32,000 nucleotides of DNA. It comes from Halanaerobiaceae bacterium (GTDB taxonomy: Bacteria; Bacillota; Halanaerobiia; Halanaerobiales; Halarsenatibacteraceae). The stretch is from the NCBI GenBank assembly GCA_003553485.1, contig PWEJ01000098.1, positions 1 through 32,000 on the forward strand, in the 5' to 3' direction. Under the pieces are notes generated by a model that was given only the letters and a program-made list of their open reading frames with translations, did not search any database and was not told the origin of the DNA. This document shows, piece by piece, positions 8,665 through 31,679 of the stretch. How positions within the stretch are numbered: the first letter of the stretch is position 1; each line of letters starts with the position of its first letter. The translations under genes were made by a program, and so were the position numbers.

Positions 8665-10143
<1,479 letters not shown>

Positions 10144-11366: not shown

Positions 11367-11385
11367 ATTCTAGCCTCCTAAATTA

Positions 11386-13320: not shown

Positions 13321-13426
13321 AAAATTATCTAACCCCTTTCTTGATGAATAGTAAAAGATAAAAATTGACACCTGTATTAATAATTATACTTTAAATAGAT
13401 AACTCCTGCCTGTTAACCATTATACT

Positions 13427-13467
13427 TTTAAAAAGTTATATCCACTGCAGGGGCAGTGGATATAACT
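13427..13467 (-). terminator. Strong intrinsic terminator after acsE
   Basis: Perfect 15-bp stem AGTTATATCCACTGC / GCAGTGGATATAACT (13434-13448 / 13453-13467), 4-nt loop, followed on the minus strand by TTTTAAAA. Confidence 0.7.
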
Positions 13468-13516
13468 AAAGGATTTAAATTATCAATCTAAGCGTTAAAT
13501 ATAGCTAACTAACAAT

Positions 13517-14317: not shown

Positions 14318-14417
14318 TATTTTATACCTCCCCAGAATATTTTATAGTTTATCATTTTAAAACAAATTAACCAGGTTTTATTCTGCAAATTAAGATATTC
14401 ACATCTTATTTTAGCCT

Positions 14418-14447
14418 GAAAAGAGCCGGACATAAAAATGTCCGGCT
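14418..14447 (-). terminator. Intercistronic hairpin / partial terminator between acsD and acsE
   Basis: Perfect 10-bp GC-rich stem AGCCGGACAT / ATGTCCGGCT (14424-14433 / 14438-14447), 4-nt loop, then CTTTTC on the minus strand. 11 nt after the acsD stop. Confidence 0.5.
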
Positions 14448-14458
14448 GTTTTAATTAC

Positions 14459-15400: not shown

Positions 15401-15418
15401 GTTTGTCCCCCCTTAATA

Positions 15419-16908: not shown

Positions 16909-16957
16909 TTATTTTCCTCCTAATCTAAACTAACTTAAATAGTAAAACACCTTTAAT

Positions 16958-18319
16958 TTACTGCCCTTCTCCTGGAGTATAATCTCTTAAAAAGGCAGGT
17001 ATGCCACTGGCTTCTCTGGGACCTACTACAACGTCCCAACCTGATTCGACTTCCAGAGAGCCACTCATAACTGCAATATAGCCTGGTAATATAACTTCTT
17101 TATGAGCCAGTTTGTCTTCCAGACCTGACTCTTTAAGGGCTTTAGCAGCTATTTCAGCATTGAGATTCTCAGAAGAATAAGCAGTTAAAACTGATTGACC
17201 TTCAGTATCTACTGTCAAAATATAAGAGGGAACTCTGCTGGTCTCAACCTCTGAAGCAACAGTAAAGTAAGTCAGAGCAAAGTTAGTGGTTAGAAGTACC
17301 GGTGCATCTTCGCCCACTTCATCGCCTACTTCAAAGGCTTTAGCCTCTACTGTAGGTGGTACGCGGGGATCGGTATAAATATTTTGCCTTAAAACGGTAA
17401 GAGGTAGGGCCTGCCAGGCTTTGGCATCCTCTATTAAAATTATATCATTATATTTACAGGTAAAAGTTGAAGCATCTAACAACAGCTCATGGGGGTCATC
17501 CCCTTCTACTAAAGTGGCTGTTGGATAACCAAGAGGACGGAAGCTTTTATTTAATGCCTGCCGGCGAATCTGGGTTACATCCTGTAAATTCTCCAGAGGA
17601 CCTTCGGCTCCTGAATTAAGGAAGATATTCTCCACTCCAGCTTCTTTAACTGCCGGGGTTAGTTCAGCCAGTTCATCCAGGTCATTACCTTCAACGACTA
17701 AAGCAGCATCTTTGTCAGCAGCAATAGCGGCGAGCTCTTCACAATTATCTGCTGTTGCAGCATAGATAAGAGGCCGCTTATCAGCCAGAGCAGAATTTTC
17801 GGCAAAGGCTTTTTCTATAGCTTCAGGATCATCGCTTACCAGAGCTGGTATCTGGTCAGTGTTATCCAGCAACAATCCCACTACTTCCGCAAAACGGTCC
17901 GGGTCTCCACTATCATTTCTAACGCCAACCAGTTCAAATTCAATAATCTCACCAATTCGCTCAAAACTAAACTGCTTGAACTCAGCAAATTTCTCAGCTA
18001 ACTCATCATCGGACAGGTCATCACTGACTAAAGCTCCCAAACCCGGTTGATTATGAAAGGTCTCTTCATGACGGTACATAACGGTCTCTTTACCCAATTC
18101 CAGTTCTTGCTCTCCAGCACCTACTTTAGAAAGTTGAATAGGCGGGGCTGAAGCGCTGGCAAGTTCATTTTTGGCCTCTTCAGAAACATGAGGACAGTCA
18201 TCCAGGGATACCTGTTTATTAGCCAGTTGCATAGCAAAGGCTAAACAGGTAGGATGACCACAATCTCCACAATTGGTCTGTGGTAAAAGCTTGTAAATCT
18301 CCATTGCAGATAGTGCCAT
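16958..18319 (-). CDS. acsC: Corrinoid/iron-sulfur protein large subunit (gamma)
   Basis: N-terminal 4Fe-4S motif CGDCGHPTCLAFA...CPH. 453 aa, strongly acidic. Confidence 0.9.
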   Translation of the reverse strand: MALSAMEIYKLLPQTNCGDCGHPTCLAFAMQLANKQVSLDDCPHVSEEAKNELASASAPPIQLSKVGAGEQELELGKETVMYRHEETFHNQPGLGALVSDDLSDDELAEKFAEFKQFSFERIGEIIEFELVGVRNDSGDPDRFAEVVGLLLDNTDQIPALVSDDPEAIEKAFAENSALADKRPLIYAATADNCEELAAIAADKDAALVVEGNDLDELAELTPAVKEAGVENIFLNSGAEGPLENLQDVTQIRRQALNKSFRPLGYPTATLVEGDDPHELLLDASTFTCKYNDIILIEDAKAWQALPLTVLRQNIYTDPRVPPTVEAKAFEVGDEVGEDAPVLLTTNFALTYFTVASEVETSRVPSYILTVDTEGQSVLTAYSSENLNAEIAAKALKESGLEDKLAHKEVILPGYIAVMSGSLEVESGWDVVVGPREASGIPAFLRDYTPGEGQ

Positions 18320-18363
18320 TATTTTTCACCCTCCAGTTACATTATTCTATAGTTATGTTTACT

Positions 18364-18406
18364 AAATATCTCCCTGCAGCAAATCATGGTCTGCAGGGAG
18401 ATATTT
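18364..18406. repeat. Perfect 16-bp inverted repeat in the acsB-acsC intercistronic gap
   Basis: AAATATCTCCCTGCAG (18364-18379) and CTGCAGGGAGATATTT (18391-18406) with an 11-nt loop. A T-rich run follows only on the plus strand. Confidence 0.6.
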
Positions 18407-18473
18407 TTATCTTTTGTGTTATTCTTAATTATACGAGTTTCAAGCTATATCATTGTTGCTATAGATTGAATGC

Positions 18474-20711
18474 TTACATCATTGGTTCCATCTCTAAGGC
18501 CGGATGACCAACTTCTTGCATAAATTCTAATACTTCCTCTTCCGTGGTTGCTACTTCTTCATCTGCTATCATGGAAACGAAGTCTTCTATTCCTTCTTTG
18601 GCTGCCCGTTCATTGAGTCTATCGCCAATCTCTTCCTTGAGCATTTTGGGCATCCAGACCAGACGGCGGAAACCACCATCAGCACTGATGAACTTTTCAC
18701 TGGCGATATAGAGCTTAGAGTGACCGATGAAGCCAGGAGTCTGAATACCTCCACCTATCTGCCCGGCCAGAGTTGAAAACTTCATCCCTGAAGGAGTCAT
18801 ACCATCATATTCTCTGGGTACAGTCATTATTCCATTGGCAGAGGGCAGAATAGTAGCGATGCATTCAAAACACCCACAGGAAGTCATGGGATCAACTATC
18901 ATGGAATAGGCACTGAATCTTTCTAGATTACCGCGAGAAGCTTCCTCGAGGTATTCATTAACACCTCGCCACTGACCTAGCTCCTCATCTATACATTCAC
19001 CCTTCTTGACTGGCTGGTTGGGTCCAGTGGGGATGATTTCGTAATTGGCTTTAGCATCAAGCCAGGTGTATCCGCCACAGAGACCAGACCTCTCTGGAGT
19101 GATAATACAGACATGATCAGGGGCAAAACTCTGACAGAGGACGCAGGAATAATAGGTATCCACATCGGTATCTTCCATGCCCATTATTCTCTCATCGCGC
19201 TGGTGATAGGCATCTCTAGCATCTTCCCTCAGTTCTTTTACCTTTTCTTCGTCAGTATGGATATGCACTTCAACTTTGTCCAATACTGAACCATATTCCT
19301 GGTGCATCCGGGCATGGATAATATCTCCCATGTTTTCAAAGGTAAAGCCCTCTTCCTTGGCAGCCTTAGAAATTCTAACCCAGTTAATATCTCGCTGCCC
19401 GTTATGCCAGAGACCAGAAGCCTGGTTGAAGTAGGTATGGATCATTCTTTCCATGACCGGTTCAAAGTCTTCCTGCATATCCCGGCCATAAATATAGACC
19501 ATAACTCCTAAGGGAAGCTGAGAACCTTCTTCAATTTCATCAATCTTAGGCCCGTTAACTACCACTTTACCATCTTCCACAGAATCAGAATCCTTAACCA
19601 TCTGCAGATATTCAAAGGAAGGAGTTCGCTGACCGCCAAACTCCACAAACATATCTTCTTTTCTGATTATCTCACCTTCGAAGGCAGGACCATAGGAAAC
19701 AGGAACCGGTACTTCTTCTACTTCAACTTTAAGCCCTCTAACTTCAATGGCTTTACTTACTATTTCATCATAAATATCTTCCTCTTCTGTCTGCTTGGGC
19801 ATAGCAACTACATGCTCATAGGTACAGATACCAGTGGGTAGAATCTCTGGTATGTCAGTATCAGCTATAGTTGGGAAGCCAAAGTTTATGGCTCCAGCAG
19901 CCTGAGCATATTTTATATCATCGACTTCATCTAGAGCTAAGACAAAGGCATAGGTTCTATTTTTGTTATATATTAAGTTACGGCGATAATCTCCTGGCTG
20001 TACTCCACCAAAGGCCATGGCAACCCGGGAGGCAAAACCCAGGGCAAAGACTGTAGCAGTTATATCTTTGCCAAAGGGCACTAATCTGGTTTCCCAACCC
20101 ATCTGGACGCCTTCCTGACGGAGCTGTTCGGCAAAACTAACCCCATCGGGGTTAGCACCAGACATGAAGACATATAAGTTTTTCTCCTGCAACTCTCTGG
20201 CTATATCAGCAGCTATTTCACTGCTGGGAGCAGCCCCAACAATAGCGGCAAATCCAGGAGCACTGCCATCGACAAACTCCAGACCTCTTTTTCTAAACAT
20301 GTTATCATTGGCAGCACCTAACCAGAAATCATCACCTTCTGGGGGGCAATTTTCTTCTAAGTGATAAGGGATAGGTTCTTCCACATATTTTAGTGATTCT
20401 ATTATTTCATCAGCAAATAAAGTGGCCATACCAGCATCCAGAGTTGGCCCGAGATAAGGAGTCCACACCTTATCTTTGGGTTCCTCTGGCACTAGATTAT
20501 TGATTTTTTTCATTACCTCTTGCATATCACCAATTTTTTCTACCTTGTAACCTGTCATAGCATAGATGACAGGCAAAAAGTAGGCTGTATCTGGTAGTTC
20601 GACTTTTTTATCAGGGCCATGTTCAGCTAAAGCTTTTTCTAACTCCTCTTCAGCCTGCCTGGCAACCTGGTTAGCTCCTCTAATTGCAGCGGATGCAATT
20701 TTTTTAGACAT
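18474..20711 (-). CDS. acsB: Acetyl-CoA synthase (CODH/ACS alpha subunit)
   Basis: 745 aa. A-cluster Cys-Gly-Cys motif in MTSCGCFECI, plus CVLCQSFAPDHVCIITPERSGLCG. Confidence 0.95.
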   Translation of the reverse strand: MSKKIASAAIRGANQVARQAEEELEKALAEHGPDKKVELPDTAYFLPVIYAMTGYKVEKIGDMQEVMKKINNLVPEEPKDKVWTPYLGPTLDAGMATLFADEIIESLKYVEEPIPYHLEENCPPEGDDFWLGAANDNMFRKRGLEFVDGSAPGFAAIVGAAPSSEIAADIARELQEKNLYVFMSGANPDGVSFAEQLRQEGVQMGWETRLVPFGKDITATVFALGFASRVAMAFGGVQPGDYRRNLIYNKNRTYAFVLALDEVDDIKYAQAAGAINFGFPTIADTDIPEILPTGICTYEHVVAMPKQTEEEDIYDEIVSKAIEVRGLKVEVEEVPVPVSYGPAFEGEIIRKEDMFVEFGGQRTPSFEYLQMVKDSDSVEDGKVVVNGPKIDEIEEGSQLPLGVMVYIYGRDMQEDFEPVMERMIHTYFNQASGLWHNGQRDINWVRISKAAKEEGFTFENMGDIIHARMHQEYGSVLDKVEVHIHTDEEKVKELREDARDAYHQRDERIMGMEDTDVDTYYSCVLCQSFAPDHVCIITPERSGLCGGYTWLDAKANYEIIPTGPNQPVKKGECIDEELGQWRGVNEYLEEASRGNLERFSAYSMIVDPMTSCGCFECIATILPSANGIMTVPREYDGMTPSGMKFSTLAGQIGGGIQTPGFIGHSKLYIASEKFISADGGFRRLVWMPKMLKEEIGDRLNERAAKEGIEDFVSMIADEEVATTEEEVLEFMQEVGHPALEMEPMM

Positions 20712-20763
20712 TTACTTAACCTCCTTGCATATTTAACAGGATATTTTTGTGTTCCAAAGTATA

Positions 20764-22758
20764 TTAATCGATCATCTCTCTTCTCATTTCCATATCAAAG
20801 AGTTCTCTTTCGGCACCTTTTTCAATGCCCAGAGCCTCTCTTTTAGCATCAATTCTATCGATCATTTTTCCAGCCATTTCATGGGGGTCCTGAGCATTAT
20901 CCCAGGTAGCACCGTATACTTTTTCATATTCTTCAAAGAGATAATCGGTTACTCTCTTACTTCCGATAGTTGGGAAGTTCCCGCCAAATACTGTGTAAAC
21001 ACCGGAAGTTACAAAATACTGGCCGATGGCAATGGCCTTTTCACTCATCCATTCTGGAGCAGCCCCGGCTACCGGTAATTCGCTGACATCATCGCCTATA
21101 TTGAGGCGTTGATTCTCCTGGCCAACATTTACCATTTCAGCTAGAGCATGGAGTATCCTGGTGTTGTCAACACAGGAACCGGCATGTAACACGGGAGGTA
21201 TACCTACAGTTTCACAAACCTCTGCCAGACCGGAACCGGCTTTTTCTTTAGCAGTCTCGGGTTTTAAGAGACCGGCCTTTGCACTGGCTATGGCCGAGCA
21301 ACCTGTTTGCACAACCAGGACATCATTGGCAATTAGCTCTTCAACCAGCGGAATATGCATGGCATCCATGGGCATAGCTACGTTGTTACAACCAACCACA
21401 CCGGCTACACCTCTAATGCGTCCATCAATTATATTACTGTTTAGAGGCCAGAATGAACTTCTGAAGCTTCCTCCCAGCATATATTTGATATATTCAAAGG
21501 AGAATCCTGCCAGGCCCTGTTCCGATTCTTCTATTATATTAACTTCTCCTCTATTGGCAAAATTATCGATAGCATTTTTGACAATCTTCCGAGCAGAAGC
21601 TAAAGGCTTGCTTTCATCAAATTCAATATGCTCTGCCATCTCCATACGAGCTTTATCGGTAGTGGTAACTACCTTAGTATGGTAATCATCGAGCATATCG
21701 GCTAGAGATTGCATTACACACTGAACGTCCACAAGCATCATTTCCACGGCACCTGTGACTACAGCTAATTCCTGCTGCAAGAAGCTGCCTGCCACTGGAA
21801 TACCATGGCGCTGTAATAACTCATTGGCGGTACAGCAGATTCCCGCTACATTAATTCCTGAAGCGCCTTGCTCTTTAGCATATTCTATTAATTCATCGTC
21901 TTGAGCAGCTATGGCAATCATCTCTGAAATTAAAGGTTCATGGCCATGAACCATAATATTAACTTTATCTTCTTTAATAACTCCAAGATTAGCCTCAAAG
22001 TTCATGGCTGATTTTCGTCCAGTCTCATCAGGTCCTCCTGGAGTACCAAACATAACATCCTGAAGCTCGGTGGCAATCATGGAGCCACTCCATCCGTCGG
22101 CTAAAGCAGCTCTCGTTCCCTGGCGCAGAATATTTTTAAAGTCCTGGTCTACACCCATTGTAGAACGATGCATTGCTTCCACTACTTCTCTATCAATACC
22201 TCGAGGGGTTACATTTTCTCTTGTCCAGAGTTCCTGCCGCTTTTGAGGAGCTTTCTTGACAAAATCTGAGTATCCTTCCTGGCGGCCGAAGTTCTCTAGA
22301 GCTCTCAAGCCAACTTCTTCTGCTATTTCATATTTATCCTTATCTTCTGTTTCAATTTCAAAGAAACGGGCAATTTCCATCAACTTGCTGACATCTTTAA
22401 TATCATAACCTTCATTTTCTCCGCGAGCTGTTTCCAGAAAAGCCTTGACGACTCCCCGACCGTGATCGGAGTGAGCTGAAGAACCACCGGCTATTAAACG
22501 GACAAAGTTTCGAGCTACAATAGTGGCGGCATCTGCACCGCAGGCGCCCAATTCCTGCCGGCCCTCAATTATCCTGCAGGGGCCCATATTACAAATTCTA
22601 CAGCAAAGTCCTTCAGTTCCAAACTTACAATGAGGTTCCTGCTGTTCATAGCGGTCCCAGACCAGCTCGACTTTAGCTTTGCTGGCACAATCCATTGCAG
22701 CACACGAAGCTTTGTCAATAACTACTTCGTTATTTTCATTGTTTTTCTTTTTAGACAT
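20764..22758 (-). CDS. acsA: Anaerobic Ni-dependent carbon monoxide dehydrogenase catalytic subunit
   Basis: 664 aa. N-terminal Fe-S motifs CKFGTEGLCCRICNMGPCRI. AGGGAGGG RBS. Confidence 0.95.
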   Translation of the reverse strand: MSKKKNNENNEVVIDKASCAAMDCASKAKVELVWDRYEQQEPHCKFGTEGLCCRICNMGPCRIIEGRQELGACGADAATIVARNFVRLIAGGSSAHSDHGRGVVKAFLETARGENEGYDIKDVSKLMEIARFFEIETEDKDKYEIAEEVGLRALENFGRQEGYSDFVKKAPQKRQELWTRENVTPRGIDREVVEAMHRSTMGVDQDFKNILRQGTRAALADGWSGSMIATELQDVMFGTPGGPDETGRKSAMNFEANLGVIKEDKVNIMVHGHEPLISEMIAIAAQDDELIEYAKEQGASGINVAGICCTANELLQRHGIPVAGSFLQQELAVVTGAVEMMLVDVQCVMQSLADMLDDYHTKVVTTTDKARMEMAEHIEFDESKPLASARKIVKNAIDNFANRGEVNIIEESEQGLAGFSFEYIKYMLGGSFRSSFWPLNSNIIDGRIRGVAGVVGCNNVAMPMDAMHIPLVEELIANDVLVVQTGCSAIASAKAGLLKPETAKEKAGSGLAEVCETVGIPPVLHAGSCVDNTRILHALAEMVNVGQENQRLNIGDDVSELPVAGAAPEWMSEKAIAIGQYFVTSGVYTVFGGNFPTIGSKRVTDYLFEEYEKVYGATWDNAQDPHEMAGKMIDRIDAKREALGIEKGAERELFDMEMRREMID

Positions 22759-24389: not shown

Positions 24390-24620
24390 TCAACCCATCC
24401 TGTCGTAAAAAAAGGCAAAGATAAACATAACAACAAAGATATAAACAAACAAAAGACCAAACCAAAAAAGCAAAAATATTCTCTGATTTCCTCTTCTCAT
24501 AATATCAAGCCACATAGAACTATCTCCAGCATATAAAAAGGCAATACTGATAGCAACGGACAGAAAAGAGATTAGAGATACCACTATAACAAAAAGAATA
24601 AAGCGCAAATAATCATCCAT
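24390..24620 (-). CDS. Small membrane protein (2 TM helices), hypothetical
   Basis: The track ORF starts at GTG 24629. The ATG at 24620 has AGGGG with better spacing. Two long hydrophobic segments. Its RBS overlaps the stop of the upstream DUF3343-like frame. Confidence 0.5.
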   Translation of the reverse strand: MDDYLRFILFVIVVSLISFLSVAISIAFLYAGDSSMWLDIMRRGNQRIFLLFWFGLLFVYIFVVMFIFAFFYDRMG

Positions 24621-24981: not shown

Positions 24982-27900
24982 CTAATAGAAAAGCAACAGG
25001 CTCCAGGGAATCAAAGCTTCGAATAAACCATTATTTCCATGAAGATAACGGGGGGTTTCATATTTCTCACTTTTTTTGAACTGATGATTAATGCTAAAAC
25101 CATGATCAGCCAAAAACAAAACCGGCTGTTCCGGTGGCAGCTCCGATAGCAGCGGAAAGAGACGATTTTCTACCTGAAATATTATTTCATCGATAAAATC
25201 CAGATAATTTTGCTTGCTGGTATGAACTTTTTCATCTATACAGGAAAAAGTAATAAGCTGGGGCTTTTTAACATCAGTTAAATTCTGTTGCTGGAAAAAT
25301 TCGCTGGTTATCTCCTCAGCCTGATGTATTTCTCCAGCAAAATCAGAGTTTTTTAAGGCTTCCAGCTGTCTTTCAGTATTTGTCGGGTCCAGGGCAAACA
25401 TAAGATCTTCTTTCAGCACTCGGAGAGAAAATTCCTCCGCTATCCTCTCTTTTATTAACTGCCATAAATCCCAGCGCATGCCATCCATGAGCAGACACAG
25501 GTTGCTACTTAATCTCATTTGCTTGAGCATCCTGGGAAAGCGGATATTAATCAGCTCTTCCAGATGATAAAAATCTTCTGCCTGTGGTGAGGATTTCGCC
25601 TCAGCCACCATAAATTCTCTCCCCTGGTAAAACTGGCGGAATCTATTTTCATAACGGCGCAACAGTTTATTAACTGCTTCTTTTTTATTGTGAAGTGGCA
25701 GAGATGCTGACAGCGAAAGTTCATCAGCCAGGAACAACATTCTGCTTTGATGGTACTCCAGCTGAGAGAGGTGATTTTTAAAAAGATTTTTCCAGGAAGC
25801 AGCAGTTTCTGGCTCTTTCTCTGAAGTTAAATTAAGAGCAGCCGTAATTTCTATAACACTTTCCAGCAAATCAATATAATCATTTTTGTAATAAGGATAC
25901 TCATAACTCTCTCTCTTTTTTAATTCCCGCATATATCTCCGGCAGTCCTTTACCTCTCCTTCGCTGGCACTGCTGGCAAATCTCTGCATAAACTGCTCTG
26001 ATAATTTTTTAATCAATTGCAGGGAAATCCGCTCTCGAGCCACAGCTGTTAGCCAATCCCCTGGTTTTTTAAGTTTCAGTTTTTCTGCCAGATTGACTGC
26101 TAAATTCTCCTCTGTCATTATGGCATTTAACTGGTTGCCTGTAAGCTCTCTCAGTTTATTTTCTTTATTCTCTTCCGCTTTTATATTAGCCTCTTCCTGT
26201 TTATGATTACCTGCAAAAAGATCAGTGCTCAAATCTATTAGGGCTGTAAGCAAAATATCATCTGCCTTTAGAAGCGAAATAACTTCAGCCTGATTGTGCG
26301 GCAAAAACTTTTCCCCTAAAACCAGCACCTCTTCTTCAGGAAGATTATGTGCTCTTTGCCAGTCACTTAAGGCCAAAAGCAAAGCAAAACCCTTTAGTCC
26401 AGCAGTGTCATACAGGGTAAGCAGTTCTGGGTAATAGTTTTCCAGATACTCTTCCATTAAATTAACTTCCTCTAGTCCAGGTTCTTTACTGGTTCTGCTT
26501 TCCTCTTCCTTGCTTCCTCTTCCTGTCCTGGCTCTGGAAGCAGTTACTCGAATATAGGTCTGGTCATCCAGAGCCGCCGAACCTTCTTCTCCTGCCAGCC
26601 ACTGCTCGATTATTTCTCTAATCTGCCCAGGAGAAAAACTTCTCTCCAGTAAATTTTCATAGAGTTCATCCAGATCTCTCTCCACCACAGAAATATCCCG
26701 GGAGAGAGCCTTATTTATCCGCTTAACCACCGAACGATTTAGAATGTCATCCAGTTCAGGTAAAACTTTTTGAGTTTCCTCCCCGGATAATTTCAGCAGT
26801 CGGCGGAGAGGTCGGGCAAAGCGTTTTTCTCCAGCCGCTTCCATGCTCTCCAGGTATTCCTGGAGTTTTTCCCGGTGCTCCTGTTGTTTTAAATTATGCA
26901 GATACTGCCTGATTCCTGAACTGATGGTAGACTGAATCTTCTGCAGTGAAGGCAATTCTATCTCGTCTTCTAAAGTAAAACCACAGGAGCAGACAGGCCT
27001 CTCCTGTAATCTGGCCTGGGAAAAATTACGGCACTGCTGCCGCAGAGCCTGAGATAATATTCTATCGACTCGTACCAGGTCATCCTGCACCGAGATAATT
27101 TCAATATCGGCCAGCTGGTTTAAAACTTGATAACTTTTGCTTTTTTTAATCTTCTCATAGGGTTTAAATCTATCAGCGGCCAGCTGTTTTTCATGCTCCT
27201 CCCTGTAGATTTCAATATAATTACGGCGAAAATTATTAAAAAGTTCTTTCGTCTCCCTAAAATAATCCTGGCTGAAGACGACATCTTCTTCTGCCAGAGA
27301 CTGTTTTAAATTCTCATAATCTCGCCTTAGCTCTTCATACTTTTCCTCCTCGGGAATCTGCAGACGGGAATCCTGCAGATAGCCTCTCATCCGGCGATAA
27401 ACTTCCTGCCTATCCTCAAAAAACTCCTCCACATCAGCCATTCTATTAAGATAATTCTCTACCTGGGGCATACTGCGGTACTGAGAGGCAAATCTCTCCA
27501 GACCTTCCTCGGAGGAATAACTAACTTTTATTTCTTCCAGCAAATCTTCTAAACTCTGCAATTGAGAATTTATTCTTTTCCGATTAATTATTTCAGCCTC
27601 ATCGCCGGAAAGACGCTTCAACTCAACCTTGATTTTTTCTATTCGCTGCTCTAGCTCCTGCTTTTTTTCCACCAAATGATCCCAGATCTCATGCTGTAGC
27701 GGCAGGGAGAAGGGCTGGTTTTTATAGCGCGGCGGCAACAGCATACATTCTCTCAATATCTCCTGAAATTCATCTGCAATAATCTCGCCATAACCCAGAT
27801 ATTCAATACGATTAAAATTGCGGGCATTGAGGTTCTTAAGACTAATCTTACGTCGACTGGAAAAAGCGGTTATATAGCCGGAAAAGAGCAGACAGTAGAC

Positions 27901-30507
27901 CAAAAGTTTAAACTGCTGCCTGCTGAGACCATAACTTCCCTTGCGCAGTTTATTATATACTTCCTCCAGAGGAGTTTTTTCACCTTCCAGATAGGAAAAA
28001 AACCTCTGCAGCAGGGGGTTTTTATCGGGTTTTACTTTCAAACTGACAGAATTTTTTCTTTTCTTGATCAACCCCATAGGTTTAAGCCTGGTATCAATCA
28101 AATTTAACACACTACCCTCTGCTTTTTTAAGGCTATCAATTTCTCCAGGTCGGAGAAAATTATCTATTAGCTCATCTATTTGACTGGTTCGCACCAGTCG
28201 ACCATAGGGAGCAATTCCGATATGATCAGGAAAACGTTTTTCTAGCAGCCGGGCTACAGCTTGTTGTTTAAGCCGGTTAAAGGGCAAAAAAGCAATCTCC
28301 TCCAGGGGTAAAACCTGCTGTTCCTGGCCATCAATTAACTCACCCTCATAATAAGCCCGCCGGAAAATATCTTTGACCGCACTCCAGTCAGCTGCAATCT
28401 GATCCTGCAATTTGTCTTTTACTTCCTGGCCAGTAGGGGAGGCATCATCTTCATATTCATCCAGCAAAAGCAGACGACTTAAGACCTGCTGGAGAAATTC
28501 TTTTTCCTTAAGTTTAGCAGGCAACCAAAATAAAAAGGACCTTCTTTCTTCATCAGTAAGCTCAGGCAGCAACACCTCCTGCAAATGCTTTCTCTGTTCT
28601 TCAATTTTATAGGCCTGTCCGATGATAAACATGAAATCCTCTTCCTGCTCCTGCAGTCTGGCAGCTGAAGTTCTGATATTTTCCAAAGTGATCTCAGTTA
28701 ACGGTAGAAAGTAGAGAAAACCCTGCCGTTCAGTATTATGCCATTCTACAGTTCTTTTGCTACGGGGATTGGAAAAGAGACGAGTAAAGGGTAAAACCTT
28801 ATCATCAATCTCCTGAGCCGGACGGGTGAAGAGACGGCTGTCATCAGCAAAGAGATTGCTCTGAATATAATCTGTTCTGCGCTGAATAATCAGATTAATA
28901 TCAGCCTCAAGGTCTATCTCATAGACTAGCTCAGTGCTTTTCTCACCTTCTGAGCGGGTTAAGTAAGCCCCCTGACTATAAAGACGCTCCAATATATCAG
29001 CAATATATTCATAATTCACCGCTGGATCCAGATCGGTCACCTGGTGCAGCAGCATATGAGCGATATCCTCAACTGTATATTTTTTATCCACCGGGGAAAT
29101 TTTAAAGAGAATCAATAGTTTAATTATCTCCATCCCTATAGTCGCATCTTCCTCACTGAGCAGGGACTCAATCTCCTGTTCGTAATATTTAAATACTTTG
29201 TCATAGTAGGAAGAAGTCTCCATCATCTCTCTAATTCGAGGTAAAAAATGATCAAAAATCTGAGCAGGCGTCAATAGCCTATCAGCAGAGCTTTCCATCA
29301 TACCAGCAATATTGCGTGAACTGTCACCCTTGATACGATAATGAATAAAATCTATTATTCCACGGTGTTGAGAAAATAAAGGCTTTAGATTATCAAGCAA
29401 ATTCACCGCCAGCGGATGCACCGGATATAGAGAGACAAATTCTGCGGGAGAAATAGGCAGTTCGGGAAAAGCTGAGCTGTAAAATTGGAAAATTTCTTCG
29501 ATATAATCCTCTGCTCCATCTTTGAGTTTTATCAATCTTTTGCTGATAATCTCTTTAATATGAGCACCTGATAGGCGAAAACGAGCTGGATAACGATCCT
29601 TGATTTTATTAAAGGCTTCAGGGGTATTCTCTCCTGTTTTTTCAATTTCTTCCTGCAAAGTAGCAACCACCCAGCAGGGCATACGACCAGTAAACTCTCC
29701 TAAAAACTGCAGAAAGCGAATATCCTCGTTAAAGCGTCGCCCATCGGTGCGGGAACGCAAAAACTCCGAAAGCTCATCAATTAAAATTACCACTCCGGCA
29801 TAAGAAGCACTACTAACAATATCCTTAAGCTGCTGAAAAATATCGCTGCGATCAAAATTAAATCGATAGGGAAGATTGAGACGGTCAGTCAGTTTTTCCA
29901 CCAGAAATAGATTGCCCGGGGAGAAAAGCTCTTCTGCGGTGAGATCATTCTCTCGCAAAAAACTTTTAAGCTTATCAGAATAATCTTCCACAACTAAAGT
30001 TTTAAGACGTTCGATGAAATCCTGCTCCCCGCTGAAAGAAAAGTCCTGAGAAGAAATTTGCTCGTCCTGCTTAAAAAAATCAGTTATAGCAGCCATCACT
30101 ATATCCTCTAAATTTTCTCGATTGCTATGTTCTACCAGAGAAATATTAATAACTATATAATCATTATTCTTTACCTTTTCACTGGACCGGACTAAAGGCC
30201 CCTTTGGGGAGCTTTGAGCCAGGATAGGAGGCCAGGAATCCTGCCAGGTTAGAAGCAGACTCATAATTCCCAGAAGGTGAGATTTGCCTGAACCAAAATT
30301 ACCTTCAATAAAGTAACCCTTACCCTTCTGCTGGCCAATATCATTAAAAAAAGCCGCAAGCACTCTCTCCACTTCATCGGTGAGCAGAAAACTGCTGGTA
30401 AGAAAATCGCGCAATTCTGGATCTTCGATATCCGACATCTGAATAACTGTTTTTACTCTGGGGATTTCTACTAAATCTTTAATTCTCTTTTCCGTCATCA
30501 TTATCAC
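24982..30507 (-). CDS. Giant fusion protein: PglY/BrxC-like P-loop ATPase + long helical region + C-terminal PglZ (alkaline-phosphatase superfamily) core
   Basis: 1,841-aa uninterrupted ORF. Walker A GNFGSGKSH (aa 69-77, nt 30280-30303). Walker B VVILIDELSEF (aa 239-249), then WVVATLQE. Charged helical/coiled-coil region about aa 940-1130, and a C-x13-CSC motif (C1159, C1173, C1175). PglZ-type motifs: CLLMDGMRWD (D1675, nt 25483-25485), IDEKVH (aa 1757-1762), LADHGF (aa 1800-1805, nt 25099-25107). Alternative ATG starts at 30501 and 30498. Confidence 0.8.
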   Translation of the reverse strand: MIMMTEKRIKDLVEIPRVKTVIQMSDIEDPELRDFLTSSFLLTDEVERVLAAFFNDIGQQKGKGYFIEGNFGSGKSHLLGIMSLLLTWQDSWPPILAQSSPKGPLVRSSEKVKNNDYIVINISLVEHSNRENLEDIVMAAITDFFKQDEQISSQDFSFSGEQDFIERLKTLVVEDYSDKLKSFLRENDLTAEELFSPGNLFLVEKLTDRLNLPYRFNFDRSDIFQQLKDIVSSASYAGVVILIDELSEFLRSRTDGRRFNEDIRFLQFLGEFTGRMPCWVVATLQEEIEKTGENTPEAFNKIKDRYPARFRLSGAHIKEIISKRLIKLKDGAEDYIEEIFQFYSSAFPELPISPAEFVSLYPVHPLAVNLLDNLKPLFSQHRGIIDFIHYRIKGDSSRNIAGMMESSADRLLTPAQIFDHFLPRIREMMETSSYYDKVFKYYEQEIESLLSEEDATIGMEIIKLLILFKISPVDKKYTVEDIAHMLLHQVTDLDPAVNYEYIADILERLYSQGAYLTRSEGEKSTELVYEIDLEADINLIIQRRTDYIQSNLFADDSRLFTRPAQEIDDKVLPFTRLFSNPRSKRTVEWHNTERQGFLYFLPLTEITLENIRTSAARLQEQEEDFMFIIGQAYKIEEQRKHLQEVLLPELTDEERRSFLFWLPAKLKEKEFLQQVLSRLLLLDEYEDDASPTGQEVKDKLQDQIAADWSAVKDIFRRAYYEGELIDGQEQQVLPLEEIAFLPFNRLKQQAVARLLEKRFPDHIGIAPYGRLVRTSQIDELIDNFLRPGEIDSLKKAEGSVLNLIDTRLKPMGLIKKRKNSVSLKVKPDKNPLLQRFFSYLEGEKTPLEEVYNKLRKGSYGLSRQQFKLLVYCLLFSGYITAFSSRRKISLKNLNARNFNRIEYLGYGEIIADEFQEILRECMLLPPRYKNQPFSLPLQHEIWDHLVEKKQELEQRIEKIKVELKRLSGDEAEIINRKRINSQLQSLEDLLEEIKVSYSSEEGLERFASQYRSMPQVENYLNRMADVEEFFEDRQEVYRRMRGYLQDSRLQIPEEEKYEELRRDYENLKQSLAEEDVVFSQDYFRETKELFNNFRRNYIEIYREEHEKQLAADRFKPYEKIKKSKSYQVLNQLADIEIISVQDDLVRVDRILSQALRQQCRNFSQARLQERPVCSCGFTLEDEIELPSLQKIQSTISSGIRQYLHNLKQQEHREKLQEYLESMEAAGEKRFARPLRRLLKLSGEETQKVLPELDDILNRSVVKRINKALSRDISVVERDLDELYENLLERSFSPGQIREIIEQWLAGEEGSAALDDQTYIRVTASRARTGRGSKEEESRTSKEPGLEEVNLMEEYLENYYPELLTLYDTAGLKGFALLLALSDWQRAHNLPEEEVLVLGEKFLPHNQAEVISLLKADDILLTALIDLSTDLFAGNHKQEEANIKAEENKENKLRELTGNQLNAIMTEENLAVNLAEKLKLKKPGDWLTAVARERISLQLIKKLSEQFMQRFASSASEGEVKDCRRYMRELKKRESYEYPYYKNDYIDLLESVIEITAALNLTSEKEPETAASWKNLFKNHLSQLEYHQSRMLFLADELSLSASLPLHNKKEAVNKLLRRYENRFRQFYQGREFMVAEAKSSPQAEDFYHLEELINIRFPRMLKQMRLSSNLCLLMDGMRWDLWQLIKERIAEEFSLRVLKEDLMFALDPTNTERQLEALKNSDFAGEIHQAEEITSEFFQQQNLTDVKKPQLITFSCIDEKVHTSKQNYLDFIDEIIFQVENRLFPLLSELPPEQPVLFLADHGFSINHQFKKSEKYETPRYLHGNNGLFEALIPWSLLLFY

Positions 30508-31504
30508 CGCTTTTGGCTTCCAGTTTTCTGATCATACCATAAAGCTTCTCAAATCCTGGATTGTTTCTGATCACATCTTGAAAAAATTCTATGCCTTCCT
30601 GGAATAATTCCAGCTCAGTGAAAATTTTCATCAGCATCGAACGAGTATAATAATCACCGGGATCGTTGCGAAAAGCTTCCTTCAAATGGGGCAGGGCCTT
30701 TTTATAATCTTTCGCCTGGTAAAGACAGAGCCCCAGTTTCTGGCTGACAAAATTATTGCCGGGATCCAATTCTAAAGCTCGACTGTACTCCTCTGCTGCC
30801 TGAGAGTATTTTTCCATTTCTAGCAGTTTCTCACCCAGCAGAGAATGGAGATGGGGGTTTTGTTCATGATTTTTTAGCCGTATTATATTCTTAAGCTCCT
30901 CAACTGCTTCTGCTGGAGTTTTTTCATTCAAGCGCAGTTTTATTTTTTCTTTATAGGCAAATTGATCCTGAGGTTTATTTCCCAGATAATCCTCATAGAT
31001 CTCCTCTGCCCTTTCCCTATCCCCCATTTTTTCATAGAGCAGGGCAGCCAGCTTGGGTAAATACTCATGCTCAGGTTCTTCCTCCAGCCAGTACTCCAGT
31101 ATCCGGCGGGCCTCGGCAAATTTTTCCAGCCTGAGCAGGGTTCTGGCCAGGCGCTGAGCTACATAAACTGTCCTATCACTTTCATAGGCGGCTGTAAAGA
31201 GCTCCCGGGCTTTTTTATATTCGCGCTTACGGAAGGAAATATTGCCTTTAACCGTTAGGGCACGGCCGTCATCTGGCTTATACTGCAAAATATCGTCGGC
31301 CAGTTTCTCTGCCTGGTTAAACTGCTGCTGGCGGTAAAGCAAGTCAGCTAAACTGGCTTTGAGATAACTATTTTGGGGGTAAGCATCTAGCCCTGATTCC
31401 AGCACCTCTCGAGCCTTTGCTAGCTCCTTATTTTGTTTTAACTTAACGGCTTTCTCCACTATATCCTTTACCTGCTGGTATTCATTTTTACTCATCATTA
31501 TCAC
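30479..31504 (-). CDS. Tetratricopeptide repeat (TPR) protein
   Basis: 341 aa with about 8 recognisable 34-aa TPR-like units (e.g. AEEYSRALELDPGNNFVSQKLGLCLYQAKDYKKALPHLKEAFRNDPGD). The 3' end overlaps the start of the fusion gene by 20-29 nt. Alternative ATG starts at 31498 and 31495. Confidence 0.85.
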   Translation of the reverse strand: MIMMSKNEYQQVKDIVEKAVKLKQNKELAKAREVLESGLDAYPQNSYLKASLADLLYRQQQFNQAEKLADDILQYKPDDGRALTVKGNISFRKREYKKARELFTAAYESDRTVYVAQRLARTLLRLEKFAEARRILEYWLEEEPEHEYLPKLAALLYEKMGDRERAEEIYEDYLGNKPQDQFAYKEKIKLRLNEKTPAEAVEELKNIIRLKNHEQNPHLHSLLGEKLLEMEKYSQAAEEYSRALELDPGNNFVSQKLGLCLYQAKDYKKALPHLKEAFRNDPGDYYTRSMLMKIFTELELFQEGIEFFQDVIRNNPGFEKLYGMIRKLEAKSGDNDDGKEN

Positions 31505-31593
31505 CTAATTTAGGAAATCCTGGTTCTCCAAAGAGTTTTTTAGAGCAGAGAAGATTATCATTGTATAAATTCCACTGATTAATTTTTTGTTTT

Positions 31594-31623
31594 TAAGTTG
31601 AGCCAGTCTAAGTTGAGCCGGTC
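31594..31623. repeat. Tandem 15-bp direct repeat upstream of the TPR gene
   Basis: TAAGTTGAGCCAGTC (31594-31608) is immediately followed by TAAGTTGAGCCGGTC (31609-31623), with 1 mismatch. About 90-120 nt upstream of the TPR start. Confidence 0.6.
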
Positions 31624-31650
31624 TACAAAGAAAATTATATGTTAATCTTT

Positions 31651-31679
31651 ATTATAGTTTAAAATTTGCATAATTTAAA
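31651..31679 (-). promoter_or_regulatory. Possible promoter of the TPR / PglZ-fusion operon (TTTAAA-N17-TATAAT)
   Basis: Minus strand: TTTAAA (31679-31674), 17-nt spacer, TATAAT (31656-31651). A second TATAAT lies at 31639-31634. The -35 is weak and the region is AT-rich, so this is tentative. Confidence 0.3.

What the first reader, a model, noticed from the sequence alone, without database searches (positions are those of the whole stretch)
24982..31504. Orphan two-gene module: TPR protein + PglY/BrxC-like ATPase fused to PglZ, with no methyltransferase or other BREX/Pgl partners
**Seen in sequence**
- A 341-aa TPR protein is translationally coupled (20-29 nt overlap) to a single 1,841-aa ORF.
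- That ORF starts with a P-loop NTPase of the type I associate with BrxC/PglY and DUF499/DUF6079-like proteins: N-terminal IKDLVEIPRVKTVIQ, Walker A GNFGSGKSH, Walker B VVILIDE, then VATLQE.
- It ends with the three metal-ligand motifs of a PglZ domain: hydrophobic strand + DGMRWD, IDEKVH, ADHGF.

**Established knowledge**
- In BREX and Pgl systems, the ATPase (BrxC/PglY) and the phosphatase-superfamily protein PglZ are separate proteins.
- In most BREX types they act with a PglX methyltransferase plus BrxA/BrxB/BrxL or PglW. The methyltransferase-less type still carries BrxP and BrxL.

**What is unusual**
- The two hallmark activities are fused in one polypeptide.
- The only partner is a TPR protein.
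- The neighbours are housekeeping genes: an NhaC-like antiporter divergently upstream, and a separately promoted sulfur-metabolism operon downstream.

**Inference**
- This is a minimal BREX-derived module, either a modification-independent defence system or a PglZ-based signalling device.
- The TPR protein may act as sensor or adaptor.
Basis: partly seen in the sequence, partly recalled or inferred. Interest (0 to 1): 0.85.

Follow-up and report, generated by a model that had tools for sequence, protein, structure and literature searches.

The report
TPR protein plus BrxC–PglZ fusion
A conserved two-gene operon fuses the two core proteins of the BREX phage-defence system (the BrxC ATPase and the PglZ phosphodiesterase) into one 1,841-residue protein. 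Its only partner is a dedicated TPR protein, there is no DNA methyltransferase, and this natural minimal BREX core recurs in hundreds of anaerobic bacterial species without being described in the literature I could search.

Summary
Window 30479-31504(-) encodes a 341-aa all-TPR protein. It overlaps window 24982-30507(-), a 1,841-aa ORF.

**The fusion protein**
- Residues 1-~1310 are a full BrxC/PglY-type AAA+ protein (Pfam DUF6079 E 9e-50; the model's best fold match is Acinetobacter BrxC).
- Residues ~1345-1841 are a helical linker plus a compact PglZ domain.
- Pfam does not detect PglZ on this sequence.
- Three results support it instead: a family-profile hit to PorX (E 9e-8), a fold match to BREX PglZ (E 1.3e-9), and invariant metal ligands with T1711 aligned to PorX's nucleophile.

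**Conservation**
- At least 309 species-level genomes encode a relative.
- 70 of 76 usable loci carry an orthologous TPR gene directly upstream.
- In one Desulfobacterota clade (15 loci) a RecQ-family helicase lies between the two genes.
- No methyltransferase, BrxA, BrxB, BrxL or other recurrent partner occurs nearby.

**Corrections and limits**
- The downstream genes are a PLP enzyme and the CODH/ACS cluster, not a sulfur operon.
- Flanks are housekeeping, with no defence islands, plasmids or phages.
- The gene tree broadly follows taxonomy.

**Verdict**
- It is a new, methyltransferase-less variant of the BREX kind.
- A DNA-targeting ATPase-phosphodiesterase role is well supported.
- An anti-phage role is only inferred (confidence about 0.5).

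The parts
30479..31504 (-). TPR partner gene (341 aa from GTG; about 338 aa from the likely ATG at 31495). It is all-TPR and has no hydrophobic N-terminus, so it is probably cytoplasmic.
   Evidence: ORF. Only TPR-type Pfam hits, for example TPR_19 at 1.9e-31. A specific orthologue (phmmer E 1e-30 to 1e-128) lies upstream of the fusion in 70 of 76 loci. Its identity co-varies with that of the fusion.
24982..30507 (-). BrxC-PglZ fusion gene (1,841 aa from GTG; likely ATG start at 30498; stop codon at 24982-24984).
   Evidence: An identical protein (P0001) lies on a 247-kb metagenome contig.
29098..30507 (-). AAA+ ATPase module of the ORC/Cdc6 clade with its helical lid (aa 1 to about 470). Walker A K75, Walker B D244/E245, arginine finger R305.
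   Evidence: All these residues are invariant. The family profile aligns to Acinetobacter BrxC structures 9zn5, 9zll and 9zdx at E 5e-16 to 5e-14, with E245 opposite the E269Q site and R305 opposite the arginine-finger position (PMC13326643). Foldseek finds the BrxC N-domain at E 1.5e-12, then ORC/Cdc6.
27718..29097 (-). BrxC middle region (aa about 471-930): winged-helix and alpha+beta domains.
   Evidence: The AF2 model has pLDDT 86.5 and a secondary-structure pattern of wHTH-like and alpha/beta units. The region is covered by Pfam DUF6079 and PADLOC BrxC models. This matches the BrxC architecture described in 10.1101/2025.10.09.681413.
26578..27717 (-). BrxC C-terminal coiled-coil region (aa about 931-1310) with an invariant Cys cluster (C1159, C1173, C1175) in a non-helical stretch (aa about 1134-1187).
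   Evidence: Long helices in the model. PADLOC BrxC model PDLC02482 matches aa 972-1288 to model positions 892-1196 of 1231, E 1.5e-35. The cysteines are invariant.
26476..26577 (-). Low-complexity, poorly conserved linker joining the BrxC part to the PglZ part (aa about 1311-1344).
   Evidence: pLDDT is below 50 for aa 1322-1336. Conservation drops from aa 1321 onwards; the lowest 40-aa blocks lie in the adjoining helical domain.
25519..26475 (-). All-helical domain (aa about 1345-1663). It is equivalent to the helical linker that precedes the phosphatase core in PglZ and PorX, and it is the fastest-evolving part of the protein.
   Evidence: Model secondary structure. It is co-aligned with the PorX and BREX PglZ helical regions. 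Conservation profile.
24985..25518 (-). Compact PglZ (alkaline-phosphatase superfamily) catalytic core (aa about 1664-1841). Key residues: D1675, R1678, D1680, T1711, D1758, H1762, D1801, H1802, H1823.
   Evidence: These residues are invariant in 58 sequences. The family profile hits PorX 7pv7 at 9e-8, with T1711 in 'lPtvTetQ' opposite PorX 'LPTATQY' (nucleophile T271/T272). Foldseek's top hit is BREX PglZ 9zn5_B at E 1.3e-9, followed by PorX and then MCR-1/NPP. PF08665 is precomputed for several orthologues. PADLOC PglZ is weak, E 0.002.
31634..31679 (-). Two overlapping sigma-70-like promoter matches (TTTAAA / TATAAT) upstream of the TPR gene.
   Evidence: Consensus scan, 10 of 12 matches each. 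This is a pattern match only.
31594..31623 (.). Tandem 15-nt direct repeat TAAGTTGAGCC(A/G)GTC between the promoter-like sites and the TPR start. It is a candidate operator; its function is unknown.
   Evidence: the repeat finder family D1.

Best explanation
This is a self-contained BREX-related module that lacks a methyltransferase. One polypeptide carries a complete BrxC-type AAA+ DNA-binding ATPase, covalently tethered through a flexible linker and a helical domain to a minimal but catalytically intact PglZ phosphodiesterase/nuclease. A dedicated cytoplasmic TPR protein is made from the same transcript by coupled translation.

**Proposed mechanism**
- The BrxC part dimerises through its C-terminal coiled coil and binds DNA under ATP control, as shown for BREX BrxC. 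This step is inferred by homology.
- That places two PglZ active sites on the bound nucleic acid, where they cut phosphodiester bonds. This step is inferred from PglZ and PorX biochemistry.
- The fusion makes the BrxB bridge of canonical BREX unnecessary. That is consistent with the absence of the PglZ N-terminal BrxB-binding domain, which is shown.
- The TPR protein regulates or triggers the enzyme, acting as a sensor or adaptor, or as a cap on ATPase oligomerisation. This step is inferred.
- In one Desulfobacterota clade a RecQ-family helicase is added, which is shown.

**Most likely biological role**
- Modification-independent restriction of invading DNA.
- Self/non-self discrimination would come from the TPR-dependent trigger rather than from an epigenetic mark.
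For: **Domain identity**
- Pfam DUF6079 (now named BrxC-PglY_N), E 8.7e-50.
- Nine PADLOC BrxC models, down to E 1.5e-35.
- The family profile hits BrxC structures in the PDB at about 1e-15 and PorX at about 1e-7.
- AF2 models are confident: pLDDT 88.6 with pTM 0.86 for the C-terminal part, and pLDDT 86.5 for the N-terminal part. Their best PDB matches are BREX PglZ (9zn5_B, E 1.3e-9) and BREX BrxC (9zll, E 1.5e-12).

**Catalytic competence**
- Walker A and B, the arginine finger, and all PglZ metal-ligand and nucleophile positions are invariant across phyla.

**Operon**
- The genes overlap by 20-29 nt and share the same SD-start motif.
- The TPR orthologue is adjacent in 54 loci, separated only by RecQ in 15, and about 950 nt upstream in 1, out of 76.
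- TPR and fusion identities co-vary.

**Self-containment**
- All-against-all clustering of every ORF within 10 kb of the gene in 80 loci found no other recurrent family.
- No N6-methyltransferase, BrxA, BrxB or BrxL was found among the neighbours.

**Accessory character**
- The context differs completely among Halanaerobiaceae relatives at 56-75% identity.
- In Moorella glycerini the module is wedged between spoVT and mfd-pth-prs-glmU.
- Only about 309 of 185,579 species representatives matched.

**Published background**
- BrxB, BrxC and PglZ form the core BREX complex.
- PglZ has nuclease activity (PMC13326643).
- A minimal PglZ replaces nucleases in type-3 BR systems.
Against: **No defence context**
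- Of 144 genes flanking 24 diverse loci, none is a recurrent defence family.
- The few PADLOC hits look like generic helicase or ATPase cross-matches. This is my inference: for example, an Mfd gene lies next to the module in Moorella.
- Five loci with Pfam-annotated 10-kb flanks are all housekeeping.

**No mobility signal**
- No copies on plasmids, on phages, or in IMG/VR contigs.

**Inheritance and evolutionary rate**
- The NJ tree of 61 fusions groups by order or phylum.
- One Halanaerobiales subclade keeps downstream synteny, and the fusion diverges about as fast as its housekeeping neighbours.
- The BrxC part is evenly conserved rather than showing the hypervariable sensor regions reported for BREX.

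**Other gaps**
- No component for marking self DNA is present.
- Two relatives lack the PglZ part altogether (L057, L073).
- No experiment exists for any member.
Confidence: 0.5

Rival explanations
1. It is a chromosomal DNA-maintenance or repair machine rather than an immune system. The BrxC-like ATPase loads on particular DNA structures, PglZ processes DNA ends or adducts, the TPR protein links it to other cellular proteins, and in Desulfobacterota a RecQ helicase works with it.
For: - Flanks are housekeeping in every locus inspected.
- The tree is broadly congruent with taxonomy, and synteny is retained in a Halanaerobiales subclade.
- Conservation along the protein is even and moderate.
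- The inserted helicase has the full RecQ set of DEAD, Helicase_C, RecQ_Zn_bind, RQC and HRDC domains.
- The module is absent from plasmids, phages and viral contigs.
Against: - Distribution is patchy: about 309 species matched, and neither the 120 best proteins nor the 80 best loci included a named, cultured Halanaerobium or Moorella thermoacetica.
- The insertion site differs between close relatives.
- The module interrupts a conserved spoVT-mfd region in Moorella.
- Every characterised BrxC plus PglZ pair is part of a defence system.
- The RecQ paralogue carries an HTH-containing insert of about 190 aa, and its best PADLOC matches are DpdF and PsyrT.
Confidence: 0.25
2. It is a nucleotide-signalling device. 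The PglZ domain acts like PorX as a phosphodiesterase on cyclic or linear oligonucleotides, and the ATPase and TPR parts control when signals are degraded.
For: - At sequence-profile level the C-terminus matches PorX (E 9e-8) rather than a solved BREX PglZ.
- PorX hydrolyses cyclic and linear oligonucleotides (PMC9757075).
- No DNA-modification partner is present.
Against: - The best structural match is BREX PglZ, not PorX.
- There is no receiver domain and no cyclase or other signalling gene in the neighbourhood.
- About 1,300 residues of DNA-binding BrxC architecture and a RecQ partner point to DNA as the substrate.
Confidence: 0.1
3. It is one half of a split canonical BREX system whose methyltransferase and accessory genes lie elsewhere in the genome, or it is a decaying remnant of one.
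For: - Only 32 kb of this genome could be inspected.
- In Streptomyces the Pgl genes are split over two loci (PMC3632139).
Against: - The same two-gene unit recurs in at least 70 loci from several phyla with no BREX gene within 10 kb.
- All catalytic residues are invariant, so it is not decaying.
- The fused PglZ lacks the BrxB-binding N-domain that canonical assembly needs.
- The fused PglZ type is found almost only in this architecture.
Confidence: 0.07

Closest known systems
BREX core complex BrxB:BrxC:PglZ (type 1 BREX; Acinetobacter structures 9zdx, 9zll, 9zn5)
   Same: - BrxC-type ORC/Cdc6-clade AAA+ ATPase with the same Walker and arginine-finger positions and a long C-terminal coiled coil.
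- PglZ phosphodiesterase fold preceded by a helical domain.
- The two activities act together.
   Different: - Here the two are one polypeptide.
- There is no BrxB, BrxA, BrxL or PglX.
- The PglZ part lacks the N-terminal BrxB-binding/iSwi2-Snf2 domain, the HTH units and the C-terminal beta-sandwich.
- The partner is a TPR protein.
- The NCBIfam BrxC score is 100 bits against a cutoff of 400.
[quoted passage not shown]
   Same: They use a stripped-down, stand-alone PglZ catalytic domain as the presumed nuclease effector next to a BrxC-like ATPase, and they include a helicase.
   Different: - BR systems use a DUF499 ATPase, always carry an N6-methyltransferase, and usually carry an iSTAND protein.
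- Here the ATPase is DUF6079-type, PglZ is fused to it, there is no methyltransferase or iSTAND, and the helicase (present in only some loci) is RecQ-type rather than Swi2/Snf2.
Type 4 BREX (BrxP-BrxC-PglZ-BrxL) and Ssp/Dnd systems with SspC
   Same: A DUF6079-type ATPase working without a methyltransferase.
   Different: Those systems mark DNA by phosphorothioation using a PAPS-reductase protein. No such gene is in the window or recurs in related loci.
PorX (PorXY two-component response regulator with a PglZ domain)
   Same: A helical bundle followed by a PglZ domain. The catalytic Thr and the metal ligands align (T1711 with PorX T271/T272).
   Different: PorX has a receiver domain, no ATPase, is restricted to the FCB group, and acts in type IX secretion regulation and oligonucleotide turnover.
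STAND/Avs-type NTPases with TPR sensor arms
   Same: The logic of a P-loop NTPase, TPR repeats and a nuclease-type effector. The Pfam TPR-S model gives a marginal hit (28.7 bits against a cutoff of 27.6).
   Different: The ATPase here belongs to the AAA+ ORC/Cdc6 clade, not STAND. The TPR is a separate protein. This resemblance is an analogy, not tested homology.

Membership tests
BrxC/PglY ATPase family (Pfam PF19557 DUF6079 / BrxC-PglY_N) | Match to the family profile above the curated threshold | tested here: met
   169.6 bits against a cutoff of 23, E 8.7e-50. Nine PADLOC BrxC models also match.
BrxC/PglY ATPase family (Pfam PF19557 DUF6079 / BrxC-PglY_N) | NCBIfam BREX_BrxC (NF033441) equivalog score | tested here: not met
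   100 bits against a cutoff of 400. It is a relative, not an equivalog of canonical BrxC.
BrxC/PglY ATPase family (Pfam PF19557 DUF6079 / BrxC-PglY_N) | ORC/Cdc6-clade AAA+ fold with Walker A, Walker B and arginine finger | tested here: met
   Foldseek finds the BrxC N-domain at E 1.5e-12, then ORC/Cdc6. K75, D244/E245 and R305 are invariant and align to the BrxC motifs.
BrxC/PglY ATPase family (Pfam PF19557 DUF6079 / BrxC-PglY_N) | Downstream wHTH, alpha+beta and wHTH domains plus a long C-terminal coiled coil | tested here: inconclusive
   The model's secondary structure and the PADLOC alignment to the BrxC C-terminus fit this architecture. Foldseek aligned only the N-terminal ~600 columns, to BrxC chains of about 520-550 residues, so the C-terminal part was not compared by fold.
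PglZ domain (Pfam PF08665; alkaline-phosphatase superfamily) | Pfam PglZ profile match on this protein | tested here: not met
   No hit even at E <= 10 on the C-terminal fragments. PADLOC PglZ gives only E 0.002. Several orthologues do carry a precomputed PF08665 hit.
PglZ domain (Pfam PF08665; alkaline-phosphatase superfamily) | PglZ/PorX-type alpha/beta fold preceded by a helical linker | tested here: met
   AF2 model pLDDT 88.6. Foldseek finds 9zn5_B (BREX PglZ) at E 1.3e-9, PorX at about 1e-7, then MCR-1/NPP.
PglZ domain (Pfam PF08665; alkaline-phosphatase superfamily) | Metal-ligand Asp/His residues and the Thr nucleophile | tested here: met
   D1675, D1680, T1711, D1758, H1762, D1801, H1802 and H1823 are invariant in 58 sequences. 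T1711 aligns with the PorX nucleophile.
PglZ domain (Pfam PF08665; alkaline-phosphatase superfamily) | BREX-PglZ accessory domains (N-terminal BrxB-binding/iSwi2-Snf2 domain, C-terminal beta-sandwich) | tested here: not met
   The region before the core is a disordered linker plus an all-helical domain, and the protein ends with the catalytic core. Compare the descriptions.
BREX system (types 1-6) | brxC and pglZ together in one locus | tested here: met
   Both are present, as a single fused gene.
BREX system (types 1-6) | A DNA-modification gene (pglX/brxX methyltransferase, or the brxP PAPS reductase in type 4) in the locus | tested here: not met
   None in the 32-kb window. No recurrent family other than TPR and RecQ within 10 kb in 80 loci. 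Only generic small methyltransferase domains in 2 of 144 neighbours.
BREX system (types 1-6) | BrxA-like and BrxB-like (iSTAND) components, reported as universal | tested here: not met
   No such recurrent neighbour. The TPR protein has no BrxB hit in PADLOC.
BREX system (types 1-6) | Partner genes elsewhere in the same genome | not testable with these tools
   Only the window and 10-kb flanks of the 247-kb contig could be read.
BREX system (types 1-6) | Confers phage resistance | not testable with these tools
   This needs an experiment.
PorX-type PglZ response regulators | N-terminal receiver domain | tested here: not met
   No Response_reg hit. The N-terminus is an AAA+ ATPase.

The most novel reading that the evidence does not exclude
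The BrxC-PglZ core can work with no epigenetic self-marking. In these anaerobes it is a largely vertically inherited chromosomal machine, regulated by a TPR protein and sometimes joined by RecQ, that acts on the cell's own DNA in repair, replication-conflict or end processing rather than in immunity. That would mean the BREX core was recruited from, or into, housekeeping DNA metabolism.
Probability: 0.2. Interest if true: 0.8.

Novelty: new variant of a known kind. Interest (0 to 1): 0.65.

Why it matters
**An open question in the BREX field**
- How BREX stops phage is still unresolved.
- Recent work places a BrxB:BrxC:PglZ core and PglZ nuclease activity at its centre, but the six-protein system is hard to dissect.

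**What this module offers**
- A natural fusion joins BrxC and PglZ covalently, drops BrxB, BrxA, BrxL and the methyltransferase, and needs only a TPR partner.
- That makes it a ready-made minimal system for asking how the ATPase controls the phosphodiesterase.
- It also allows a test of whether the core can tell foreign from self DNA without methylation.

**Other consequences**
- The fusion is independent, Rosetta-stone-type evidence that BrxC and PglZ act as one unit.
- If the module is not defensive, it would show that BREX parts have a housekeeping life.
- Practically, hundreds of proteins now labelled only 'DUF6079 family protein' could be annotated as BrxC-PglZ fusions.

Tried and rejected
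**Sequence searches that did not detect PglZ**
- Pfam on the C-terminal 399, 672 and 573 aa at E <= 10 gave no PglZ hit.
- Single-sequence phmmer of aa 1603-1841 against the PDB gave nothing relevant.
- The motif-level call therefore had to be confirmed by family profile and by fold.

**Libraries not available**

**Searches for mobile carriers**
- tblastn against plasmids found one weak archaeal BrxC-like hit at 22% identity.
- tblastn against phages found nothing.
- The IMG/VR scan found nothing.

**Search for defence neighbours**
- PADLOC and Pfam on 144 flanking proteins from 24 loci found no recurrent defence family.

**PALP enzyme as a possible third component**
- It lies near the module in the window and in L085 and L086.
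- I rejected it: only 1 of the 80 genome-scan loci has a homologue.

**'Downstream sulfur operon'**
- Rejected. The downstream genes are PALP plus CODH/ACS.

**Literature**
- Searches used DUF6079; PglZ+BrxC+tetratricopeptide; PglZ+RecQ+TPR; PglZ+TPR; and fused/minimal.
- Targeted reading of the 2026 BREX-diversity paper found no mention of a BrxC-PglZ fusion, TPR or RecQ.
- Goldfarb 2015 is not held.

**Split or truncated variants**
- L049 and L071 look frameshifted.
- L057 and L073 genuinely end after the BrxC part, with no PglZ gene downstream.

Full report
**1. What is in the sequence**

The minus strand carries a 341-aa ORF (30479-31504) and a 1,841-aa ORF (24982-30507).

The ORFs overlap by 29 nt when counted from their GTG codons. 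Each GTG is part of the same 14-mer, GGTGATAATGATGA, which occurs exactly twice in the window against 0.02 expected by chance. The closest relatives have GGTGATAAnnATG at the corresponding places. The GTG is therefore probably part of a Shine-Dalgarno-like GGTGA, and the true starts are the second ATGs at 31495 and 30498. That gives a 20-nt overlap. It also places the ribosome-binding site of the large gene inside the end of the TPR gene, which is the classic arrangement for translational coupling.

Sigma-70-like promoter matches (31634-31679) and a tandem 15-nt repeat (31594-31623) lie upstream of the TPR gene.

The divergent upstream gene is a Na+/H+ antiporter family protein. The downstream genes are a PALP-family PLP enzyme and then a complete CODH/ACS (Wood-Ljungdahl) cluster. 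They are not a sulfur operon. The methionine genes with a SAM riboswitch are about 15 kb away.

**2. The N-terminal 1,300 residues are a BrxC/PglY-type protein**

Sequence evidence:
- Pfam DUF6079, which the collection now labels BrxC-PglY_N, matches at E 8.7e-50.
- Nine PADLOC BrxC models match. One covers the C-terminal coiled-coil region (aa 972-1288 against model positions 892-1196 of 1231).
- NCBIfam's BrxC equivalog model scores only 100 bits against a cutoff of 400. The protein is a relative of canonical BrxC, not an equivalog.

Profile and structure evidence:
- A profile of 58 family members hits the recently solved Acinetobacter BrxC structures at about 1e-15.
- In that alignment Walker B E245 lies opposite the E269Q site, and invariant R305 lies opposite the arginine-finger position (PMC13326643).
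- An AlphaFold2 model of aa 1-1200 (pLDDT 86.5) finds the BrxC N-domain first (E 1.5e-12), followed by ORC/Cdc6.
- Its later secondary structure fits the winged-helix, alpha+beta, winged-helix and coiled-coil plan described for BrxC.
- An invariant C-x13-C-x-C cluster sits in a non-helical stretch within the coiled-coil region.

**3. The C-terminal 500 residues are a helical linker plus a minimal PglZ**

Pfam does not see PglZ in this sequence, even at E <= 10. Single-sequence phmmer against the PDB also fails. Four independent results support PglZ nonetheless:
- About 15 of the 120 best homologues carry a precomputed PF08665 hit.
- The family profile hits PorX structures at E 9e-8. The 'lPtvTetQ' segment aligns opposite PorX 'LPTATQY', which contains the T271/T272 nucleophile, and 'YlHGG' aligns opposite PorX 'FQHGG'.
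- A confident model of aa 1290-1841 (pLDDT 88.6, pTM 0.86) has BREX PglZ (9zn5_B) as its best PDB match at E 1.3e-9. All PorX entries follow, and then other alkaline-phosphatase-superfamily enzymes.
- D1675, R1678, D1680, T1711, D1758, H1762, D1801, H1802 and H1823 are invariant in 58 sequences from several phyla.

The model shows three segments:
- a disordered linker (aa about 1311-1344);
- an all-helical domain (about 1345-1663), which is the least conserved part of the protein;
- a catalytic core of about 175 aa that ends the protein.

The N-terminal BrxB-binding domain, the HTH units and the C-terminal beta-sandwich of BREX PglZ are absent (compare).

A search of 1.84 billion representative proteins with this C-terminal part returned only 137 hits. 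Nearly all are proteins of 1,650-1,850 aa matched at their C-terminal end, or fragments. A few stand-alone PglZ proteins of 750-830 aa form the outgroup. This PglZ type therefore lives almost exclusively in the fusion.

**4. The pair is a conserved module**

Spread of the fusion:
- Full-length homologues (31-76% identity) are numerous.
- A scan of one genome per species found 309 contigs encoding a relative.
- The 80 best come from Halanaerobiales, Moorellales, Syntrophomonadaceae, Peptococcaceae, Thermodesulfobacteriota/Desulfobacterota, Vulcanimicrobiota, Cloacimonadota, Marinacidobacterales and Spirochaetia.
- Where named or environmentally typed, they are anaerobes and mostly MAGs.

The TPR partner:
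- An orthologue of the window's TPR protein scores phmmer E 1e-30 to 1e-128, far beyond generic TPR similarity.
- It lies directly upstream of the fusion in 54 loci, upstream with one gene between in 15 loci, and about 950 nt upstream in 1, out of 76 loci with enough upstream sequence.
- TPR and fusion identities track each other, for example 75/75, 59/60 and 46/46 percent.

Other neighbours:
- All-against-all clustering of every ORF in the 10-kb flanks found only one further recurrent family, a protein of about 790 aa in 16 loci.
- That protein is a RecQ-family helicase with DEAD, Helicase_C, RecQ_Zn_bind, RQC and HRDC domains and an HTH-containing insert. Its best PADLOC matches are DpdF and PsyrT.
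- It is confined to the Desulfobacterota clade of the fusion tree.
- No methyltransferase, PAPS reductase, BrxA, BrxB, BrxL or PglW recurs.
- Two relatives (L057, L073) end after the BrxC part and have no PglZ gene downstream.

**5. Is it a defence system?**

The homology says BREX. The genomic context does not add support.
- Among 144 genes flanking 24 diverse loci there is no recurrent defence family. The commonest domains are histidine kinases, metallo-beta-lactamase fold proteins and transporters.
- Five loci with 10-kb Pfam-annotated flanks are entirely housekeeping.
- No copy was found on plasmids, phages or viral contigs.
- A neighbour-joining tree of 61 fusions groups by order or phylum, with few exceptions.
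- One Halanaerobiales subclade keeps downstream synteny, and there the fusion diverges about as fast as its neighbours.

Other features point to an accessory gene.
- The module is patchy. Only about 309 species matched, and neither the 120 best proteins nor the 80 best loci include a named, cultured Halanaerobium or Moorella thermoacetica.
- It sits in completely different contexts in Halanaerobiaceae relatives at 56-75% identity.
- In Moorella glycerini it is wedged, together with an MscS gene, between spoVT and mfd-pth-ctc-prs-glmU.

I therefore treat 'DNA-targeting ATPase-phosphodiesterase module' as well supported. 'Anti-phage system' is the most likely role but remains unproven.

**6. Proposed mechanism**

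What is shown and what is inferred:
- Shown: a complete BrxC and a catalytically intact minimal PglZ are joined in one chain by a flexible linker, and they are co-translated with a dedicated TPR protein.
- Established for BREX (PMC13326643): BrxC dimerises through its C-terminus and binds DNA under ATP control. [quoted passage not shown] PglZ is a metal-dependent nuclease.
- Inferred here: the fusion replaces the BrxB bridge, which explains the loss of the PglZ N-domain. A dimer would bring two PglZ sites onto DNA bound by the ATPase. The TPR protein regulates or triggers this, acting as a sensor of a foreign protein, an adaptor, or a cap on ATPase assembly. RecQ adds unwinding in one clade.

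Without a methyltransferase, discrimination would have to come from the trigger or from DNA structure.

Rival readings:
- a housekeeping DNA-maintenance machine (confidence 0.25);
- a PorX-like oligonucleotide phosphodiesterase (0.1);
- a split or remnant BREX (0.07).

**7. Comparison with what is known, and novelty**

The module works like the BREX core, but it fails the membership test for a BREX system. It has no modification gene and no BrxA-like or BrxB-like components, and it falls below the BrxC equivalog cutoff.

It also differs from other related systems:
- Type-3 BR systems use a DUF499 ATPase, a methyltransferase, an iSTAND protein and a stand-alone PglZ.
- Type 4 BREX and Ssp systems use a PAPS reductase.
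- The HerA/FtsK-centred PglZ plus DUF6079 system is a seven-component locus.
- PorX has a receiver domain.

Searches of the held literature found no description of a BrxC-PglZ fusion or of its TPR or RecQ partners. Databases name the proteins only 'DUF6079 family protein' or 'hypothetical'. The library does not hold every paper; Goldfarb 2015, for example, is missing. Prior mention therefore cannot be excluded.

I class the module as a new variant of a known kind, with interest 0.65. It is a widespread natural minimal BREX core that could make the BrxC-PglZ mechanism directly testable. Its biological role is still open.

Noticed in passing
L050:7514-9991, L069:7071-9893, L072:2178-4577, L073:7508-9880, L081:7596-9974 (16 loci in all): A RecQ-family helicase (DEAD, Helicase_C, RecQ_Zn_bind, RQC, HRDC) lies between the TPR gene and the fusion, only in the Desulfobacterota clade. 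It carries an HTH-containing insert of about 190 aa, and its best PADLOC matches are DpdF and PsyrT.
   Followed up: partly
window 30495-30508 and 31492-31505 (-): An identical 14-mer, GGTGATAATGATGA, sits at the start of both genes (2 copies against 0.02 expected). Relatives have GGTGATAAnnATG. This suggests a shared SD-start context and true starts at the second ATG.
   Followed up: yes
window 31594-31623: A tandem 15-nt direct repeat, TAAGTTGAGCC(A/G)GTC, lies between the promoter-like sites and the TPR start. It is a possible operator. Conservation in relatives was not checked.
   Followed up: no
window 3637-4791 (+): A 384-aa protein matches bacterial eRF1-like (baeRF) families 7, 3 and 6 (E 1.6e-38). 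It sits beside a 488-aa ORF (4899-6365, -) with no Pfam hit.
   Followed up: no
window 10031-10139 (-): A SAM riboswitch (96.9 bits) precedes a Cys/Met PLP enzyme (8665-10107) and a homoserine O-succinyltransferase (7693-8652). The listed GTG start of the first gene overlaps the riboswitch, so its real start must be further downstream.
   Followed up: no
window 10257-22758 (-): A complete CODH/ACS Wood-Ljungdahl cluster: CooS-type CODH, ACS, both CFeSP subunits, CooC-like ATPase, DUF166, methyltransferase and RACo. Together with trimethylamine/dimethylamine methyltransferase genes just beyond the window (L001:2439-6865), this suggests an acetogenic, methylamine-using Halanaerobiaceae organism.
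   Followed up: no
L057:7907-11953 and L073:9989-13786: Two relatives keep the TPR gene (and RecQ in L073), but their large protein ends after the BrxC part (1,348 and 1,265 aa) with no PglZ gene downstream. L049 and L071 have the PglZ part in a separate frame, which is probably a frameshift or assembly error.
   Followed up: partly
L084:4481-11931 (Moorella glycerini): The TPR-fusion pair plus an MscS channel gene lies between spoVT and mfd-pth-ctc-prs-glmU. This looks like an insertion into a conserved Firmicutes housekeeping block.
   Followed up: no
L044:3169-4413: In one Deltaproteobacteria MAG a phage-type integrase, not the TPR gene, lies directly upstream of the fusion.
   Followed up: no
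window aa C1159, C1173, C1175 of the fusion (about nt 26983-27033): An invariant C-x13-C-x-C cluster sits in a non-helical stretch (aa about 1134-1187) within the BrxC coiled-coil region. It recalls a zinc hook or hinge. Metal binding is untested.
   Followed up: no
window 24390-24620 (-): A 76-aa gene with no Pfam hit is called on the identical metagenome contig, in the 620-nt gap between the fusion and the PALP gene. Its conservation was not examined.
   Followed up: no
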